64,000 nt of DNA from the human T2T-CHM13v2.0 reference genome, Homo sapiens, in assembly GCF_009914755.1 (NCBI RefSeq), contig NC_060927.1. One strand, given 5' to 3'. The translations under genes were made by a program, and so were the position numbers. Under the pieces are notes generated by a model that saw only the letters and a list, made by a program, of their open reading frames with translations, was not told the origin of the DNA and made no database searches. Shown in pieces: positions 4,027 to 60,419 of the stretch (position 1 is its first letter; each line of letters begins with the position of its first letter).

Positions 4027-4240
4027 CAGTCTAACAGACCTAGTTTTGACTTCATAAGTCCACACCCTTCCCAGCTGCATTATATCTATATCGTTACTAA
4101 ACTTCCTAGAATATCAGTTTCTTCTTCCATATAATGAGGACAATTAGACCTATCCGCAAGTGATGCTGTGAAGATAAAATGAGATATATAAGTAAAATAC
4201 CTCACATAGTATCTGGTATAGTCTAGTCTCAATAAATAGA
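4027..4240 (+). mobile_element. MIR SINE
   Basis: 'tcagtttcttcttccatataatgagga...gtgaagataaaatgagata...ctcaataaata' matches the MIR core and 3' end. Confidence 0.7.
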
Positions 4241-5354: not shown

Positions 5355-5551
5355 TTAAGCTAGAATAGTTCTTGTGACGGGAGCCAAGAGAAGCCATGAG
5401 AGAACCCCCAACTCCAGCTCAGCCTTTTGGAAGGAACATCTGACAGACTTCTGGTTTTGGGATTGGGAAGCCACCCAATCAGAGTTCGACTATCTGGACC
5501 AATCAGAACGAAATAAGCTTGACTCTTTTGTCTACGTAAAAGAACATGATT

Positions 5552-15243: not shown

Positions 15244-15316
15244 AGGACATCTTTGAAAGTAAAAAAGAAGGGCTAATTTGTAACACTTCAAGGATAAAAG
15301 ACAAAATCTAGGTCTG

Positions 15317-15521
15317 GCAAAGGCATAAGAATGATACAATGGACTTTGGGGACTTGGGAAGGGTGCGGGGGTGGCGAGGGAAAAAAGACTACAAATAGGG
15401 TGCAGTGTACACTGCTTGGGTGATGGGTACACCAAAATCTCACAAATCACCACTAAAGAATTTATTCATGTAACCAAATACCACCTGTACTCCAATAACC
15501 TATAGAAAAATAAAATTTAAA
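15317..15521 (+). mobile_element. L1PB 3' end fragment
   Basis: 'gcaaaggcataagaatgatacaatggactttgggga...' L1PB 3'UTR. Perfect TSD aaaatctaggtctg at 15303-15316 and 15522-15535. Confidence 0.9.
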
Positions 15522-15920
15522 AAAATCTAGGTCTGACCCAGGCAATCTGGATATATGGTCTCCCTGGAGTCCTAAATGAACTTCTAGACCCTGGGCCATA
15601 ACAAAATCAGTTATCTCACCCCTGCACTGATTATCAATGTTCTCCCTGAAGCTACCATAGCGAACTGATGCCAAATTCACTTTCTGCCCCTGAATTTTAA
15701 AAGAGGTCGCCATATCTTTCTGATGCATTCTCTTTTTAAAAAAAGAGAATTTTTCCGACGGGTGTTTTTCCAAAGGGCTTAAAAAACGGCGCACCACGAG
15801 ATTATATTCCGCACCTGGCTCGGAGGGTCCTACGCCCACGGAGTCTCGCTGATTGCTAGCACAGCAGTCTGACATCAAACTGCAAGGCGGCAGCGAGGCT
15901 GGGGGAGGGACGCCCGCCAT
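15462..15920 (-). CDS. L1 ORF0 read-through chimeric ORF, 152 aa (hypothetical)
   Basis: Starts MAGVPPPASLPPCSLMSDCCASNQRDSVGVGPSEPG (ORF0) in context gcaATGg and continues in frame into flanking DNA. AATAAA at 15466-15461 overlaps the stop. Confidence 0.35.
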   Translation of the reverse strand: MAGVPPPASLPPCSLMSDCCASNQRDSVGVGPSEPGAEYNLVVRRFLSPLEKHPSEKFSFFKKRMHQKDMATSFKIQGQKVNLASVRYGSFRENIDNQCRGEITDFVMAQGLEVHLGLQGDHISRLPGSDLDFFKFYFSIGYWSTGGIWLHE

Positions 15921-16375
15921 TGCCCAGGCTTGCTTAGGTAAACAAAGCAGCCTGGAAGCTCCAACTGGGTGGAGCCCACCACAGCTCAAGGAGGCCTGCC
16001 TGCCTCTGTAGGCTCCACCTCTGGGAGCAGGGCACAGACAAACCAAAAGACAGCAGTAACCTCTGCAGACTTAAATGTCCCTGTCTGAAAGCTTTGAAGA
16101 GAGCAGTGGTTCTCCCAGCACACAGCTGGAGATCTGAGAACGGGCAGACTGCCTCCTCAAGTGGGTCCCTGACCCCTGACCCCCGAGCAGCCTAACTGGG
16201 AGGCACCCCCCAGCAGGGGCACACTGACACCTCACACGGCAGGGTATTCCAACAGACCTGCAGCTGAGGGTCCTGTCTGTTAGAAGGAAAACTAACAAAC
16301 AGAAAGGACATCCACACCAAAAACCCATCTGTACATCACCATCATCAAAGACCAAAAGTAGATAAAACCACAAAG

Positions 16376-17392
16376 ATGGGGAAAAAACAGAACAGAAAAA
16401 CTGGAAACTCTAAAAAGCAGAGTGCCTCTCCTCCTCCAAAGGAATGCAGTTCCTCACCAGCAACGGAACAAAGCTGGATGGAGAATGACTTTGACGAGCT
16501 GAGAGAAGAAGGCTTCAGACGATCAAATTACTCTGAGCTACGGGAGGACATTCAAACCAAAGGCAAAGAAGTTGAAACCTTTGAAAAAAATTTAGAAGAA
16601 TGTGTAACTAGCATAACCAATACAGAGAAGTGTTTAAAGGAGCTGAAGGAGCTGAAAACCAAGGCTCGAGAACTACGTGAAGAATGCAGAAGCCTCAGGA
16701 ACCGATGTGATCAACTGGAAGAAAGGGTATCAGTGATGGAAGATGAAATGAATGAAATGAAGCGAGAAGGGAAGTTTAGAGAAAAAAGAATAAAAAGAAA
16801 TGAGCAAAGCCTCCAAGAAATATGGGACTATGTGAAAAGACCAAATCTACGTCTAATTGGTGTACCTGAAAGTGATGGGGAGAATGGAACCAAGTTGGAA
16901 AACACTCTGCAGGATATTATCCAGGAGAACTTCCCCAACCTAGCAAGGCAGGCAAACATTCAAATTCAGGAAATACAGAGAACGCCACAAAGATACTCCT
17001 CGAGAAGAGCAACTCCAAGACACATAATTGTCAGATTCACCAAAGTTGAAATGAAGGAAAAAATGTTAAGGGCAGCCAGAGAGAAAGGTCGGGTTACCCT
17101 CAAAGGGAAGCCCATCAGACTAACAGCGGATCTCTCAGCAGAAACCCTACAAGCCAGAAGAGAGTGGGGGCCAATATTCAACATTCTTAAAGAAAAGAAT
17201 TTTCAACCCAGAATTTCATATCCAGCCAAACTAAGCTTCATAAGTGAAGGAGAAATAAAGCACTTTACAGACAAGCAAATGCTGAGAGATTTTGTCACCA
17301 CCAGGCCTGCCCTAAAAGAGCTCCTGAAGGAAGCGCTAAACATGGAAAGGAACAACCGGTACCAGCTGCTGCAAAATCATGCCAAAATGTAA
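16376..17392 (+). CDS. LINE-1 ORF1p (RNA-binding chaperone), intact 338 aa
   Basis: Full-length MGKKQNRK...NHAKM with REKG, ARR and YPAKLS motifs. Confidence 0.9.
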   Translation: MGKKQNRKTGNSKKQSASPPPKECSSSPATEQSWMENDFDELREEGFRRSNYSELREDIQTKGKEVETFEKNLEECVTSITNTEKCLKELKELKTKARELREECRSLRNRCDQLEERVSVMEDEMNEMKREGKFREKRIKRNEQSLQEIWDYVKRPNLRLIGVPESDGENGTKLENTLQDIIQENFPNLARQANIQIQEIQRTPQRYSSRRATPRHIIVRFTKVEMKEKMLRAAREKGRVTLKGKPIRLTADLSAETLQARREWGPIFNILKEKNFQPRISYPAKLSFISEGEIKHFTDKQMLRDFVTTRPALKELLKEALNMERNNRYQLLQNHAKM

Positions 17393-17440
17393 AGACCATC
17401 GAGACTAGGAAGAAACTGCATCAACTAACGAGCAAAATAA

Positions 17441-21294
<3,854 letters not shown>

Positions 21295-21719
21295 AAAATG
21301 AGATCACATGGACACAGGAAGGGGAACATCACACTCTGGGGACTGTTGTGGGGTGGGGGGAGGGGGGAGGGATAGCATTGGGAGATATACCTAATGCTAG
21401 ATGACGAGTTAGTGGGTGCAGCGCACCAGTATGGCACATGTATACATATGTAACTAACCTGCACAATGTGCACATGTACCCTAAAACTTAAAGTACAATA
21501 ATAAAAAAATAATAATAATAATTAGAGTAATACTTAATAAATGAGTAAAATTCTTTTTAAATTTTTGGTTTGACATAGCCAGACAACTTATTCAACTCTT
21601 CATTTCACTTTATAGTAGATACAAGATGGCTGGAAAGAGATAACCTGACAAATACATTTATGTGATAAGCGATGAAATAAAATGTTCTTAAGAAAAAAAA
21701 AAAGATCTTAATTGGCTTT

Positions 21720-25399: not shown

Positions 25400-26526
25400 T
25401 TCTTCAACTTTATTATGGTTTAATTAACAATTTAAAAATTATACATATGGTGTACAATGTGATGTTTTGATATGGGCATACATTGTGAAATGTGTATATA
25501 TATATGTATATATATACCACTTTTTTCTTTATTTATCCACTGATGAACACCTAGGTTAATTCTCTATTTTGGCTAAAAACTATAGTAAGCAAAACAGCAT
25601 GGTACACACATAAAGACAGATATACAGACCAGTGGAACAGAAAAGAGAATCCAGAAATAAATACACACATTTATGATCAAGTGGTCTTTAACAAAGCTGC
25701 CAAGAACACACAATGGGGAAAGGATGGCCTCTTCAACAGTGTTGGAAAAACTGGATAGCCACGTGCAGAAGAATGAAATTTGTCTCTTACTAAATATACA
25801 AAAATCACCTCAAAATGGATTAAAAACTTAAACATGAGAACTGAAACTCTAAAACTACCACAAAGTTACCAAGGGGAAAGCTTCTTGACATTGGCCTTGG
25901 CAAAGACTTTGTGGATGCAACCCTAAAGCACAAGCAACATAGGCAAAAATAGACAAATGAGATTGCTTTAAACCCAAAAGCTTCTGCGCAGCAAAGGAAA
26001 CAATCAATAGAGTAAAAAGCAAACCTGGGGAATGGGAGAAAATATTTGCAAATCATACATCTGACAAGGAATTGATATTCAAAAATATATAAGGAACTCA
26101 AACAACTAGCAAGAAAACAAATAATTTGATTTTTAAGTGGGCAAAGGACCTGAATAGACATTTCTCAAAGAAGACATAAGAACGGCCAACAGATGATCAT
26201 CTAGTCACGAGAGAAATGCAAATTAAAGCCATAATGAGACATCATCTCATACCTGTTAGAATGGCTATTATCAAAAAGACAAAAGATAACAAGTATTGGT
26301 GAGGATGTAGAGAAAAGAGAATCTTTGCACACTGTTGATGGGAATGTAATCTGTTCTAGACATTATGGAAACCAGTAGAGAGTTTCCTAAAAATATTATA
26401 AATGGAACTATCATGTGATCTAGCAATCACACTTTTGAGTACATATTCAAAGAAAATAAAATCTGTATGTCAAAGAGATATCTACACTCCCTCATGTCTA
26501 TTACACCATTATTCACAATAGTGAAG
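25400..26526 (-). mobile_element. L1MA-type 3' region with 5' inversion
   Basis: 25400-25575 is the antisense 3' end; 25576-26526 is sense ORF2 3' region, ending where the antisense part begins (cacaatag/tagccaa). Confidence 0.75.
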
Positions 26527-48963: not shown

Positions 48964-50836
48964 CTACGGTGGGGACAAGACAGATACATCTTCTCTGTTG
49001 GCAAATACTGAGCCTGGGAGAGTTTCTTTTCATTCACACATAAGGATACACAAATCCATAAGATCCGCAGAAACAAAATACTAGAGATTAATGGAACACC
49101 ACCCCGAACACACAAAAGAAATGCATACCTCTGAAAATGACACATTAGAAAAACCAAAGCAAAATTGAAAAGACTATTGACATTTTGAATGGAATATCAA
49201 AATACATGCATAGTATGAAAAGTAGAGGAAAGACATTACAGTTAATTCATTTGAGAGAAAAATACAACTGCAATAGATAATGAAGGAGCCTATAAATATA
49301 TAAAAATACAAAATCAAAATTAAACATGATTTAAAAATAAAGAACAAATTTACATGGCAGAATATAAAATTGATGTCACAGAGAACAAACCAAAGAGGCT
49401 ATTCCAATGTATACAGGCATATGACAGATAAAAATAAAAATAAAGAACATAAAACTTGCAGAGGACAGAAGACATGAGATCAAAAGAAACAAAATAAGTA
49501 ATCAAAGATATCAAAGAAAAACATATGTAAACTGCTGAGAGGAAATCATCTCCTACATACATTCTGGAGGGGAAAAATGGTGAATTATAAAGACTAACTA
49601 GAGAGGAAATATCATGGAGGCCTCAGAATTCTTATCTGAAAAATAACAGTGCTTGATAATATTATTAAAACTACAGGATTTAGGGGAGGCCATTGTAACT
49701 TAAAAAACATATAACCATAATTATTTTGTGTGTATGAAGGTATAAGAAAGATATTCAAAAAGAGTTTTTATGAGTCATTAAGAAAAATATTTTTTTAATG
49801 AGCAAGGAATACAAAGAAAAGCTCAAAGGGAGATTCCAAGATGGCCAAATAGAAACAGCTCCAGTCTGCAGCTCTCAGCGTGAGCAACATAGAAGTCAGG
49901 TGATTTCTGTATGTTCAACTGGGGTACTGGGTTCATCTCACTGGGGCTTGTTGGACAGTGGGTACAACCCACGGAGTGTGACCCAAAGCAGGGTGGGGCA
50001 TTGCCTCACCCGGGAAGTGCAAGGGTCCGGAATTCCCTTTCCTAGCCAAGGGAAGCCATGACAGAAGGTACCTGGACAACTGGGACACTCCCACCCTAAT
50101 ACTGTGCTTTTCCAACAGTCTTAGCAAATGGCACACCAGGAGATTATATCCTGCTCCTGGCTCGGAGGGTCCCATGCCCACGGAGCCTCGCTCACTTCTA
50201 GCACAGCAGTCTGAGATCGAACTGCAAGGTGGCAGCCAGGCTGGGGGAGGGGCATTCACCATTGCTGAGGCTTGAATAGGTAAACAAAGCAGCCAGGAAG
50301 CTCGAACTGGATGGAGCCCACTGCAGCTCAAGGAGTCCTCCCTGCCTCTGTAGGCTCCACCTCTGGGGGCAGGGCATAGCTGAATAAAAGGCAGCAGAAA
50401 CTTCTGCAGACTTAAACGCCCCGTCTGACAGCTTTGAAGAGAGTAGTGGTTCTCCCAGCACAGAGTTTGAGATCTGAGAACGGACAGACTGCCTCCTCAA
50501 GTGGGTCCCTGACCCCTGAGTAGCGTAACTGGGAGACACCTCCCACTAGGGGCCAACTGACAACTCATACAGCCAGGTGCCCCTCTGAGACGAAGCATCC
50601 AGAGGAAGGATCAGGCAGCAACATTTGCCGTTCTGCAATATTTGCTGTTCTGCAGCCTCTGCTGGTGATACCCAGGCAAACAGGGTCTGGAGTGGACCTC
50701 CAGCAAACCCCAACAGATCTGCAGCTGAGGGTCCTGACTATTAGGAGGAAAACTAACAAACAGAAAGGACATCCACACCAAAACCCCATCTGTACATCAC
50801 CATCATCAAAGACCAAAGGTAGATAAAACCACAAAG

Positions 50837-51862
50837 ATGGGGAGAAACCAGAGAAGAAAAGCTGAAAATTTGAAAAACCAGAGCTCCTCTTCTCCTCCAA
50901 AGGAATGCAGCTCCTCACCAGCAACAGAACAAAGCTGGAAGGAGAATGACTTTGATGAGTTGAGAGAAGAAGGCTTCAGACGATTGGTAATAACAAACTT
51001 CTCTGTGCTAAAGGACGATGTACGAACCCATCACAAAGAAGCTAAAAACCTTGAAGAAAGATTAGATGAATGGCTAACTAGAATAAATAGCGTAGAGAAG
51101 CCCTTAAATGACCTGATGGAGCTGAAAACCATGGTACAAGAACTGCATGATGCATGCACAAGCTTCAGTAGCCCATTTGATCAAGTGGAAGAAAGGGTAT
51201 CAGTGATTGAAGATCAAATGAATGAAATGAAGCAAGAAGAGAAGTTTAGAGAAAAAAGAGTAAAAAGAAATGAACAAAGCCTCCAAGAAATATGCGACTA
51301 TGTGAAAAGACCAAATCTACATCTGATTGGTGTACCTGAAAGTGACGGGGTGAATGGAACCAAGCTGGAAAACACTCTTCAGGATATTATCCAGGAGAAT
51401 TTCCCCAACCTAGCAAGGCAGGCCAGCATTCAAATTCAGAAAATACAGAGAATGCCACAAAGATACTCCTCAAGAAGAGCAACTCCAAGATACATAATTT
51501 TCAGATTCACCAAAGTTGAAATGAAGGAAAAAATATCAAGGGCAGCCAGAGAGAAAGGTCAGGTTACCTAAAAAGGGAAGCCCATCAGACCTACAGTGGA
51601 TCTCTCGGCAGAAATTCTACAAGCCAGCAGAGAGTGGGGGCCAATATTCAACATTCTTAAAGAAAAGAATTTTCAACCCAGAATTTCATATCCACCCAAA
51701 CTAAGCTTCATAAGTGAAGGAGAAATAAAATACTTTACAGACAAGCAAATGCTGAGAGATTTTGTCACCACCAGGCCTGCCTCACAAGAGCTCCTGAAGG
51801 AAGCACTAAACATGGAAAGGAACAACCTGTATGAGCCACTGCAAAAACATGCCAAATTGTAA
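50837..51862 (+). pseudogene. LINE-1 ORF1, disrupted
   Basis: Stop after 244 aa (51569-51571); the C-terminal part lies in a separate ORF fragment. Confidence 0.9.
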
Positions 51863-51925
51863 AGACCATCGATGCTAGGAAGAAACTGCATCAACTAATG
51901 AGCAAAATAACCAGCTAACTTCATA

Positions 51926-55727
<3,802 letters not shown>

Positions 55728-57907
55728 ACAATGAGAACACTTGGACACAGTGGGGAACATCAAACACCAGGTCCTGTCATGGGGTGGGGGTAGGGGGGAG
55801 GGATAGCATTAGGAGATATTCCTAATGTAAATGACGAGTTAATGGGTGCAGCCCACCAACATGGCACTTGTATACATATGCAACAAACCTGTACATTGTG
55901 CACATGTACCCTAGAACTTAAAGTATAATAAAAAAAAGAAAAGCTCAAATCACCTATGAACATATGAGAAATACTCAATCACACTAGTAAATTACAATAT
56001 TAAGATCCTATTTCACACTTGTTTAATAAACAAAATTGTAAAACTCTAAAAATATCAAGTATTCAACTAATAGAATAAAATGAGAACTGTCATGCCTTGC
56101 TAGCAGGAAAAGAAATTAGTGATCATCCCCCACCCCAACCCCAGAACACAAAATTAAACAACTATTCACACAAGAAACACCTTCATAAGAACAAAAAATC
56201 AGAGGAGCACTCACAATACCTGGTTTTAACATCATATCAAGGAAAGGGGCGCTGAAGATGGAAAAGAAATCAGTCTTGAATTGCTGATACCACCCATTCC
56301 CCTTCCCCAAGTAGTGACTACATGGAGAGAAGAGAGGATCTGTGTGCTTGCGGGAGGGAGAATGCAGTGAATGCATGAGAATGCAGAGAATGCAGTGGAA
56401 CTTTGCAATTGGAACTCAGTGCTGCTCTGTCACAGTGGAAAGCAACACAAGGCAGAATTCAGCTGGTGCCCACAGAGGAAGAATTTAGGCCAGCCTATCC
56501 CAGAAATCAGAAACTGGGTTCTGGCTAGCCCCCACCATTGCAGGCTAAAGTTTTTTGGGGTCTAAATAAACTTGAAAGGCAGTCTAGGCCACAAGAACTG
56601 CAATTTCTGGGCAAGTCCTGGTGCTGTGCTGGGCTCAGAGCCAGTAGACTTGGGGTGCATGCAACATAATCAGGAACTAACTGGGGCAGCCAAGGCACTG
56701 TTCATGTCACTCCTCCCCTAACCTGAGGCAGTACAGCCTGCAGCTGTGGGAGAGACTCCTTCCTTCAGGTTGAAGAAAGGAAAGGAAGAGGAAGAGGACT
56801 TTGTCTTGCATCTTGGATATCAGCTCAGGCACAGTAGAATAAGGCACCAAGCAAAGTCCTGAGACCGTGATTTCAGTCCCTAGCTCCTGGACGACATTTC
56901 TAGACACACCCTGTACCGGATGGGAAACAGCTGCCTTGAAGGGAAAAACCCAGTCCTGGCAGGATTCACCACCTGCTGTTGACTAAAGAGCCCTTGAGTC
57001 TTGAATAAACATTAGTGGTTGCCAGGCAATACTCGCTACAGGCCTTAGGTGAACCCCAATGCCGTTGTGGCTTCAGGTGTGACCCAGCACACTGCCAGCT
57101 GTGGTGACCATGGAGAGAGACTCCATTGGCTTGAGGAAAGAAGAGAGAAGAGTAAAGGTGACTTTGTCTTGCAGCTTGGGTACCATCTTAGCCACAGTGG
57201 GGTAGAGCACTAAGTGGACTTCTCAGAACCCTGATTCCAAGCCTTGGCTCATCGGGGGGCATTTATGGACCCACCTTAGGGCAAAGGGGACCCCATCGCC
57301 CTGAAGGGAAAAACCCAGGCCTGGCAGCATTTACCATAAGCTGACTGAAGAGCCCTTGAGCCATGAGTGAATATCAGCAGTAGCCTAGCAGTACTCGATG
57401 CAGATCTGGAGTTGGGGTGGCCATTGAGAGAGGCTCCTTCTGCTTGAGGAAAAGAGAGGGAAGAGTGAGAAGGACTTTGTCTTGCAGCTTGGGTATCATC
57501 ACCTCAGCTGTAGTAGAATAGAGCACCAAGTAGATTCCCAAGGTTTCCAACTCCAGGGCCTGGCTCCCAGACTGCATTTCTGGACCCTACCATGGATAGG
57601 GAAAAGCTTGCCACCCTGAAGGGAAGGATACAATCCTGGCTGGATTCACCACCTGCTGATTGTAGAACCCTTGAGCCTTGAGGAAACATCAGCGGTAACT
57701 TGACAGTGGTTGCCACAGGCCTAAGGCAATACCCAGTGCTTAGTCTGCCCTAACACAGTCCCGAAATGGTGGCCACAGGGATACTTGTGTCACCTCTCCC
57801 CCAGTTCCAAGAAATTCAGCATGGAGAGAGAGAGACTCTGTTGGTTTGGGGAAAAGTAAGGGAAGAGAACAAGAGTCTCCACTTGGTAATCTAAGCAATT
57901 CTCCTGG

Positions 57908-58981: not shown

Positions 58982-60419
58982 TCCTGGATCTTACCCAAGA
59001 CCAAAAAGGTGGTACCTACACAGATCTGCAGGAGTCATAGCATTACTAGGATTGGGATTCCCCTTAACACATATATGCCTGCAATGACCAAAGACTTACA
59101 TCACAACACTCAATACCCTTTGAATACTTGGAAAGCCTTCCCTAGAAGGATGAGTACAAACAAGCCCAGACTGTGAAGATTACAATAAAAACCTGACTCC
59201 TCAATGCCCAGACATTGGTGCAAATCCACAGGCATCAACACCTTCCAGGAAAACATGACCTCACCAAATGAATTAAATAAGGCACCAGTGACCAGTCCTG
59301 GAGTGGCAGAAATATGTGATCTTTCAGACAGATAATTCAAAATAGCTATTTTGAGAAAGCTCAGTGAAATCCAAGATAACATGGAGAAGGAATTCAGAAT
59401 ACTCTCAGATAAATTTCAACAAAGAGATTGAAATAATTTAAAAGAATCGAGCAGAAATTCTGGAGCTGAAAATTCAATTGACATATTGAAGAATCTATCA
59501 GAGTCTCTCAACAGCAGAATTGATTAAGCAATAAGAAATTATCTGAAGTTACAAAATTTACTGCTAGTAGTAAGCACACAAACACAGAATATCCTAACAC
59601 TGAAATTGTGTATAAACAACTCATATCTTGAGTAGAAAGACTAAAAATAAACCTATCAAAAGTAATGACTAAAACAATTGTTCAAGACATAGACAGTATA
59701 ATAAGATATAAATAGAAACAATAAAAACTTTAAAAGCAGGGGATAAAGTTAAAATGTAGAGTTCTTTTTCAGTTTCCTCTTTGCTTGTTTGTTATTTTGT
59801 TTTGCAATCAGTGTTATGTTGTCATCAGTGTAAAATAATGGGTTATAGGATGTTATTTGCAAGCCTCATGGTAACTTCAAATAAAGCAATATGCAACAGA
59901 TACACAAAAAATAAAAAGGAATTGAAACATACAACCAGAGAAAATTGACTTCCCAAAAAGGAACACAGGAAGGAAAGACTACAAAACAACCAGAAAGCAA
60001 ATAACAAAATGGCAGTAGTAAGCCCTTATTAATAATAACACAGAACATAAATGGATTAAATCTCTAATCAAAACATATAGAGTGGATGAATGGATAAAGA
60101 AAACAATACTCAGTGATCTGTTACCTAGAAGAAACACACTTTACCTATAAAGACACACATAGACTAAAAGTAAAGGGATGGAAGAAGATATTTTGTGCAA
60201 ATGGAAACCAAAAAAACAGAAAAAATAGCTATACTTATATCAGACAAAACAGATTTTAAGACAAAAACTATAAAATGAGATAAAAAGGCCATTATATAAT
60301 GACAAAGGGGTCCATTCAGTAAGAGAACACAACAATTGTAAATATATATGGACCCAACATTGGAGTACCCAACATAAAGCAAATATTAGAGCTAAAGAGA
60401 GAGATAGAACCCAATACAA

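What the first reader, a model, noticed from the sequence alone, without database searches (positions are those of the whole stretch)
15461..15920. L1 ORF0 extended into flanking DNA: 152-aa chimeric ORF with its own poly(A) signal
Known: primate L1 5'UTRs encode a ~71-aa antisense ORF0 driven by the antisense promoter. Seen: this L1PA3 is truncated inside ORF0, removing its stop codon. The frame runs ~56 codons in L1 and ~96 more through unique DNA and an antisense L1PB fragment to TAA at 15464-15462. AATAAA overlaps that stop, and the ATG has a strong Kozak context (gcaATGg). The antisense-promoter region is retained while the 5' YY1/sense start is lost. Inference: a ready-made de novo gene unit (promoter, start, novel C-terminus, poly(A) signal).
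Basis: partly seen in the sequence, partly recalled or inferred. Interest (0 to 1): 0.7.

Follow-up and report, generated by a model that had tools for sequence, protein, structure and literature searches.

The report
LINE-1 ORF0 running into flanking DNA
A truncated human LINE-1 copy has lost the stop codon of its small antisense gene ORF0, so the frame runs 152 codons into neighbouring DNA; this is likely a chance by-product rather than a new gene, because long ORF0 frames ending in flanking DNA are common among older LINE-1 copies.

Summary
The anatomy is real. A 152-codon minus-strand frame starts at the ORF0 ATG of an L1PA3-type element lacking its first ~290 nt. It runs ~95 codons through unique DNA and an older L1 fragment to a TAA that overlaps AATAAA.

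The 'ready-made gene' reading is weak. The Kozak context and stop are inherited from repeats. AATAAA occurs in 31 of 1381 copies of the older repeat. 10 of 47 position-ordered ORF0 loci have frames of 153-195 codons that run off the L1 end into flank. About 7 tails this long are expected genome-wide, about 0.6 with AATAAA. A known ORF0 splice donor is retained inside the frame.

In its favour: the tail is rare per locus (0.2-1%); within the truncated class the full combination is expected only ~0.02 times; and the promoter carries hESC H3K4me1 peaks.

No transcript, peptide or ape orthologue was found, and the catalogues checked could largely not see this locus. Verdict: likely a neutral proto-ORF at an enhancer-like L1 promoter. 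The by-catch is more interesting: an estimated several hundred older L1s have no ORF0 stop inside the element.

The parts
15462..15920 (-). 152-codon open frame starting at the ORF0 ATG
15766..15920 (-). ORF0 codons 1-52, L1 5'UTR antisense, 95-99% identical to sibling L1s; ATG context inherited
15809..15817 (-). retained ORF0 splice donor (CAG|GTGCGG, ATG+106, codon 36); the second donor (ATG+191 in siblings) is lost with the truncation
   Evidence: two donors in ORF0 per PMC13517631 and PMC4859970 passages
15751..15765 (+). 15-nt imperfect tandem duplication of L1 sequence at the 5' junction; frame-neutral
15727..15750 (.). near-palindromic T-run/A-run at the junction, resembling an L1 endonuclease site (motif recalled); possible degenerate target-site duplication, inconclusive
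15536..15750 (-). single-copy flanking DNA read as ~71 codons
15317..15521 (+). 3' end of an older L1 (L1PB-type, label recalled) with its A-tail, between 14-bp direct repeats at 15303-15316 and 15522-15535; read antisense it supplies the last ~19 codons, the stop and the poly(A) signal
15461..15466 (-). AATAAA overlapping the stop; two differences from the repeat's majority hexamer; present in 31 of 1381 copies
15421..15450 (-). G/U-rich stretch (67% U+G) downstream of the hexamer, inherited from the repeat; no UGUA in the 100 nt upstream
15497..15520 (-). candidate splice acceptor at 15500|15499 made from the antisense A-tail; with the retained donor it would define a 315-nt in-frame intron and a 47-aa product; 12 of 16 pyrimidines by hand, below my 13/16 screen
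15768..15968 (-). zone corresponding to L1 positions +300 to +500, where antisense starts are reported; only starts above ~15923 include the ATG
   Evidence: PMC9396940 and PMC4908685 passages; mapping
15470..16471 (.). two RefSeq enhancer tiles matching H3K4me1 ChIP peaks in human ES cells (hg19 chr3:176544827-176545328 and 176545329-176545828)
   Evidence: hub annotation; PMC6084406 supplement
15751..21520 (+). L1PA3-type element (short 5'UTR) lacking its first ~290 nt; ORF1 intact (16376-17392, 338 aa), ORF2 in three pieces

Best explanation
The 5' truncation of this L1PA3-type element removed the stop codon of its antisense ORF0, so the frame runs 152 codons into flanking DNA; this is likely a neutral chance read-through at an enhancer-like L1 promoter, whose RNA would likely be scarce and spliced or degraded rather than yield a stable 152-aa protein. 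Shown: loss of ~290 nt including the stop and the second donor; a frame-neutral junction duplication; an open single-copy flank; a stop inherited from an older L1 fragment; AATAAA as a common variant of that fragment; a retained first donor; H3K4me1 in ES cells. Inferred: loss of the 5' YY1 site leaves the promoter less methylated in embryonic cells, giving weak antisense initiation around 15770-15970. Starts below the ATG cannot make ORF0. Starts above it meet the donor at codon 36, which either splices the tail out or, through U1 binding, suppresses the poly(A) signal ~350 nt downstream (U1 mechanism recalled). Unspliced ~500-nt RNAs that do end there resemble short mono-exonic exosome substrates.
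For: 10 of 47 position-ordered ORF0 loci have 153-195-aa frames ending in flank, i.e. ~760 (410-1230) of 3562 loci. With P(at least 96 open codons) ~0.95% and P(AATAAA near the stop) 8-9%, ~7 such tails and ~0.6 with AATAAA are expected. The hexamer is in 31 of 1381 copies, close to the product of its two single variants (6 of 29 and 4 of 29). All 29 nearest copies have a stop at the same codon. The Kozak context is in 35 of 37 siblings. The donor is retained. No Pfam match and no separate homologue cluster of the tail. Short mono-exonic RNAs with TSS-proximal poly(A) sites are exosome targets (PMC9477074 passages).
Against: The tail is rare at the locus: 11 of 5000 shuffles stay open, and the other five frames hold 6-9 stops. 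Among 10 truncated read-through loci only this one and an ORF0-ORF2 junction exceed 37 flank codons. In the truncated class alone the full combination is expected ~0.02 times. 0 of 10 run-off frames had AATAAA within 50 nt of the stop. The promoter is H3K4me1-marked, and YY1-less L1s are less methylated (PMC10879037 passage). [quoted passage not shown] The nulls assume independence and rest on small samples.
Confidence: 0.7

Rival explanations
1. Expressed proto-gene: in ES, germ-line or demethylated cells the antisense promoter makes a ~500-nt unspliced RNA cleaved after the AATAAA and translated into the 152-aa chimera at a low but detectable level, without selected function.
For: All cis parts are in order. 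H3K4me1 peaks span the promoter and junction. YY1-less L1s are less methylated. Most L1 chimeric transcripts are unspliced at the 5' end. A stop next to the poly(A) signal would avoid NMD (established knowledge).
Against: No transcript or peptide record was found (largely blind searches). The donor lies inside the frame. Reported antisense starts straddle the ATG. 11 to 13 of 24 tested L1 chimeric RNAs were not polyadenylated.
Confidence: 0.15
2. Classical ORF0 fusion: the main stable product is spliced from the retained donor, either to the candidate acceptor at 15499 (47 aa, same stop and poly(A) signal) or 11.6 kb downstream to LINC01209 exon 2 (61 aa), making the L1 an alternative promoter for LINC01209.
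For: Donor intact and of the family type. In-frame 315-nt candidate intron; the LINC01209 acceptor at 4165 is on the same strand and passes the screen. Spliced ORF0 fusions are the described route.
Against: The RefSeq LINC01209 model starts at 5441. No row was found in the Criscione supplements (no positive control run). The near acceptor failed my 13/16 screen. Spliced forms were a small minority.
Confidence: 0.12
3. Selected de novo gene: frame and poly(A) signal have been kept by selection since insertion and the protein has a function.
For: Low local probability of the open tail; AATAAA differs at two positions from the repeat majority.
Against: The genome-wide expectation is near one. The hexamer frequency fits neutral variation. 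No homologue or domain. No annotation.
Confidence: 0.03

Closest known systems
L1 ORF0 (Denli et al. 2015; paper not held, seen only through passages of PMC4908685, PMC7746726, PMC4859970, PMC13517631)
   Same: Same ATG, context and first 52 codons; under the L1 antisense promoter; first splice donor present.
   Different: Stop and second donor are deleted, and the frame ends in non-L1PA DNA. Most close siblings carry a 102-aa rather than the 71-aa form.
Spliced ORF0-exon fusions (57 of ~3200 loci, as quoted in PMC4908685)
   Same: ORF0 N-terminus joined to host-derived sequence.
   Different: Joined by genomic truncation and read-through, not by splicing; the tail is non-coding DNA, not a gene exon; no expression shown.
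Unspliced L1 chimeric transcripts (PMC9396940)
   Same: Continuous antisense transcription from an L1 5'UTR into unique flank is exactly the RNA required here.
   Different: This L1 is absent from their reference set (filter repStart<400), so it was not assayed; they report RNAs, not this frame.
LINC01876, an L1PA2 antisense-promoter lncRNA (PMC10619931)
   Same: Hominoid L1 antisense promoter near a lncRNA.
   Different: There the ORF0 start is mutated and expression and function are shown; here the start is intact, the stop is lost and expression is unknown.
5'-truncated, YY1-site-less L1s that evade methylation (PMC10879037 passage)
   Same: 5' YY1 region lost; embryonic-cell chromatin mark present.
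   Different: Those lose ~30 nt and keep the sense promoter; this one loses ~290 nt.

Membership tests
L1 ORF0 | ATG near L1 position 452, antisense, in an L1HS/L1PA2-8 5'UTR | tested here: met
   ATG lies 456 nt from the ORF1 ATG, as in siblings, whose ATG is 451-452 nt from the L1 5' end
L1 ORF0 | N-terminal ORF0 sequence conserved | tested here: met
   40 invariant columns within residues 1-52
L1 ORF0 | stop codon inside the L1 5'UTR (71- or 102-aa form) | tested here: not met
   deleted; frame ends at 15462
L1 ORF0 | two splice donors | tested here: not met
   first kept, second lost
L1 ORF0 | antisense RNA starting above the ATG, and translated | not testable with these tools
   no CAGE, RNA-seq or Ribo-seq available; catalogue searches uninformative
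Spliced ORF0-exon fusion | donor spliced to a downstream exon | not testable with these tools
   candidate acceptors listed only
De novo protein-coding gene | open frame from previously non-coding DNA | tested here: met
   ~71 codons of single-copy DNA
De novo protein-coding gene | frame longer than chance allows | tested here: inconclusive
   0.2-1% per locus; ~7 expected over all ORF0 loci, 0.24 in the truncated class
De novo protein-coding gene | functional poly(A) site | tested here: inconclusive
   AATAAA and G/U tail present, UGUA absent, neutral frequency; usage untested
De novo protein-coding gene | transcription, translation, and constraint across orthologues or populations | not testable with these tools
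   no ape genome or variant data on hand; one self cluster only in the protein search

The most novel reading that the evidence does not exclude
This locus is a live proto-gene in embryonic or demethylated cells: an L1 antisense promoter freed from silencing by its truncation makes a polyadenylated, translated 152-aa ORF0 chimera with a 95-residue tail of new sequence. It would be the extreme case of an overlooked class in which several hundred older L1s have no ORF0 stop inside the element and so turn their flanking DNA into locus-specific protein tails without splicing.
Probability: 0.1. Interest if true: 0.7.

Novelty: new variant of a known kind. Interest (0 to 1): 0.3.

Why it matters
If expressed, read-through ORF0 would give retrotransposons a splice-independent way to create locus-specific peptides (raw material for gene birth, possible tumour or ES-cell antigens). 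At least one catalogue that filters for near-full-length L1s misses this truncated locus. The sequence-level result that about one in five sampled ORF0 starts has no stop inside the element gives a countable, testable target list for Ribo-seq and immunopeptidomics. If not expressed, the locus is a clear example of how promoter, start, long frame and AATAAA assemble by chance around L1 ends.

Tried and rejected
1) Target-site duplication: the best exact match between the two ends is a 10-nt T/A run. A degenerate candidate occurs by chance in 217 of 2574 windows. Truncation at insertion versus later deletion stays open.
2) L073 first looked like a second example (155 aa), but its tail is L1 ORF2 sequence; it was dropped as a unique-flank case.
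3) Protein search: 922 hits, of which 120 were listed; all but the self cluster match only the ORF0 part. The tail alone finds only the self cluster (lengths 83-266 only, 'longer' and 'shorter' not run). One hit reads through a sibling's stop as W (P0004 against L004), so these look like mechanical ORF calls and are not used as evidence of expression. The 9 members of the self cluster could not be listed.
4) Pfam: none. AlphaFold on the single sequence: pLDDT 32, uninformative, no fold search run.
5) Catalogues: Pinson S1/S2 lack this L1 while the neighbouring L1PA5 is present. Criscione and long-read CAGE supplements gave no hit, without positive controls. Only the H3K4me1 file of the Barakat archive is readable, so reporter activity and H3K27ac were not seen.
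6) Five papers were not held: Denli 2015, Speek 2001, Matlik 2006 and two others.
7) Searches for a published run-off or truncated ORF0 class gave no such paper in the listings (0, 4, 4 and 8 papers; most seen as listings only).
8) Earlier scan findings were unavailable.

Full report
Observation. The frame is as described: 15920..15462 on the minus strand, 152 aa, with AATAAA at 15466-15461 across the stop. Against full-length siblings the L1 homology covers the first 155-159 nt. Siblings extend 451-452 nt from the ATG to the L1 5' end, so about 290 nt are missing. A 15-nt imperfect duplication at 15751-15765 keeps the frame. 15525-15765 has one match in the genome. 15317-15521 is the 3' end of an older L1 with many copies at 88-91% (the L1PB label is recalled), flanked by a 14-bp direct repeat. 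The young element has an intact 338-aa ORF1 and a three-piece ORF2. It is 97.4% identical to its closest held sibling, which corresponds to a short-5'UTR L1PA3 row in PMC9396940 Table S1 (lift recalled and approximate). No clear target-site duplication was found.

Where each gene-like part comes from. The start context is the family default (35 of 37 siblings). The stop is inherited: all 29 nearest copies of the older repeat stop at that codon. AATAAA is absent from those 29, but its two single variants are present in 6 and 4 of them. Genome-wide, 31 of 1381 copies with the same flanking bases carry it (2.2%), as independent neutral variation predicts. The downstream G/U-rich stretch is inherited, and no UGUA lies in the 100 nt upstream. 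6 of the 7 closest siblings have a 102-aa ORF0 and 1 the 71-aa form.

How unusual is the tail? At least 96 open codons follow 0.9-1.0% of random positions in the window and in 29 other loci; AATAAA lies within -5..+50 nt of a stop in 8-9%; 11 of 5000 shuffles of this tail stay open. 3562 loci carry the ORF0 start motif. A filter for loss of downstream L1 sequence passed 126, of which the 100 listed were examined: 14 are truncated inside ORF0 (this one included) and 10 read through. This locus has ~99 codons past continuous L1 homology; one other long case is an ORF0-ORF2 junction; the remaining eight stop within 37 codons. Scaled, the truncated class holds ~26 read-throughs, with 0.24 long tails and 0.02 long tails plus AATAAA expected.

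The wider comparison goes the other way. Of the first 47 motif loci on chromosome 1, taken in order, 10 have frames of 153-195 codons that pass the L1 5' end and add 2-44 flank codons; none of the 10 has AATAAA within 50 nt of the stop. That extrapolates to ~760 loci (410-1230), ~7 long tails and ~0.6 with AATAAA. 7 of 86 non-truncated filter hits and 1 of 30 exact-motif loci also reach at least 152 codons. Length and a flank-derived end are therefore ordinary for ORF0, and one locus like this is within genome-wide expectation. The estimate rests on 47 loci from one chromosome and assumes independence.

RNA-level anatomy. Reviews state that ORF0 holds two splice donors (passages of PMC13517631 and PMC4859970). 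Siblings show donor motifs at ATG+106 and +191; the first is kept here at codon 36 and the second is lost. It could splice to a candidate acceptor at 15499 (315-nt in-frame intron, 47 aa; below my 13/16 pyrimidine screen) or to one of 10 screened acceptors downstream, including LINC01209 exon 2 (61 aa). Antisense starts are reported at +300 to +500, mainly ~400-450 (passages of PMC9396940 and PMC4908685), i.e. 15768-15968, straddling the ATG. Against the splicing arm, only 2.9% of chimeric transcripts in PMC9396940 were spliced at the 5' end; 11-13 of 24 lacked poly(A). Short mono-exonic RNAs with promoter-proximal poly(A) sites are typical exosome targets (passages of PMC9477074). U1 suppression of a nearby poly(A) signal is recalled, not read.

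Activity. The two RefSeq enhancer tiles match, in length and adjacency, H3K4me1 peaks in human ES cells at hg19 chr3:176544827-176545828 (PMC6084406 supplement). Only that file of the archive is readable, so reporter activity and H3K27ac were not seen. [quoted passage not shown] No transcript or peptide was found. The Pinson reference set omits this L1, while the neighbouring L1PA5 is listed with a one-read chimera; their filter repStart<400 likely excludes it. Criscione and long-read CAGE supplements gave nothing, without positive controls. The protein has no Pfam match, no homologue of its tail beyond its own cluster and no confident fold (uninformative without an alignment).

Mechanism and verdict. 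Shown: truncation, lost stop, open flank, inherited stop, common-variant hexamer, retained donor, H3K4me1. Inferred: weak antisense transcription in embryonic or demethylated cells whose products mostly miss the ATG, splice, or decay. I put neutral read-through without a stable 152-aa protein at 0.70, an expressed unspliced proto-gene at 0.15, a spliced fusion or LINC01209 promoter at 0.12 and a selected gene at 0.03. It works like an ORF0 fusion but is made by truncation instead of splicing; it fails the internal-stop and two-donor features of canonical ORF0. Four searches listed no paper on truncated or run-off ORF0 frames, but the original ORF0 paper was not held and may mention them. Papers were seen as passages (PMC5860796, PMC4908685, PMC7298899, PMC9396940, PMC7746726, PMC10879037, PMC10619931, PMC9477074, PMC13517631, PMC4859970, PMC6084406), as supplement searches (PMC9396940, PMC4908685, PMC6084406, PMC10760525) or as listings only; none was read whole.

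Noticed in passing
L170, L171, L174, L178, L181, L184, L189, L190, L198, L200 (chr1); also L093, L162, L163: ORF0 frames fall into three length classes: 71 aa, 102 aa, and ~150+ aa with no stop inside the L1, running off its 5' end into flank. The run-off class is 10 of 47 loci and is more diverged from the young references (87-92% versus 94-97%). L093 and L162 are still open at 199 codons.
   Followed up: partly
L073 (G000:C2:19197097-19197696, +): ORF0 codons 1-29 are joined in frame to L1 ORF2 sequence at a rearranged junction, giving a 155-aa ORF0-ORF2 frame without the splice donor.
   Followed up: partly
window ~49840-55950 (+): Near-full-length L1PA5 (hg19 chr3:176579102-176585211) with a one-read antisense chimera (Id_712) in one glioma in PMC9396940; no H3K4me1 row at its 5' end in the readable part of the Barakat file; my ORF0 start regex did not match it.
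   Followed up: partly
window 15873-15875 and 15711-15713 (-): A private substitution creates an in-frame ATG at codon 16, and codon 70 is an ATG in strong context; RNAs starting below the ORF0 ATG could use them (137 and 83 aa).
   Followed up: no
window 15727-15765: Near-palindrome plus a 15-nt imperfect duplication at the L1 junction; the outer copy carries the siblings' common allele and the inner copy two changes, suggesting templated end-joining.
   Followed up: partly
window 16071-16328 (-): An 85-aa upstream frame in the ORF0 phase ends 150 nt above the ORF0 ATG; it matters only for RNAs starting far upstream.
   Followed up: no
window 16376-17392 (+): ORF1 is intact (338 aa) although the 5' end of the sense promoter is lost and ORF2 is broken.
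   Followed up: no
window 25580-26521 and 60031-60382: Old L1 ORF2 fragments at 69-71% identity to the young element.
   Followed up: no
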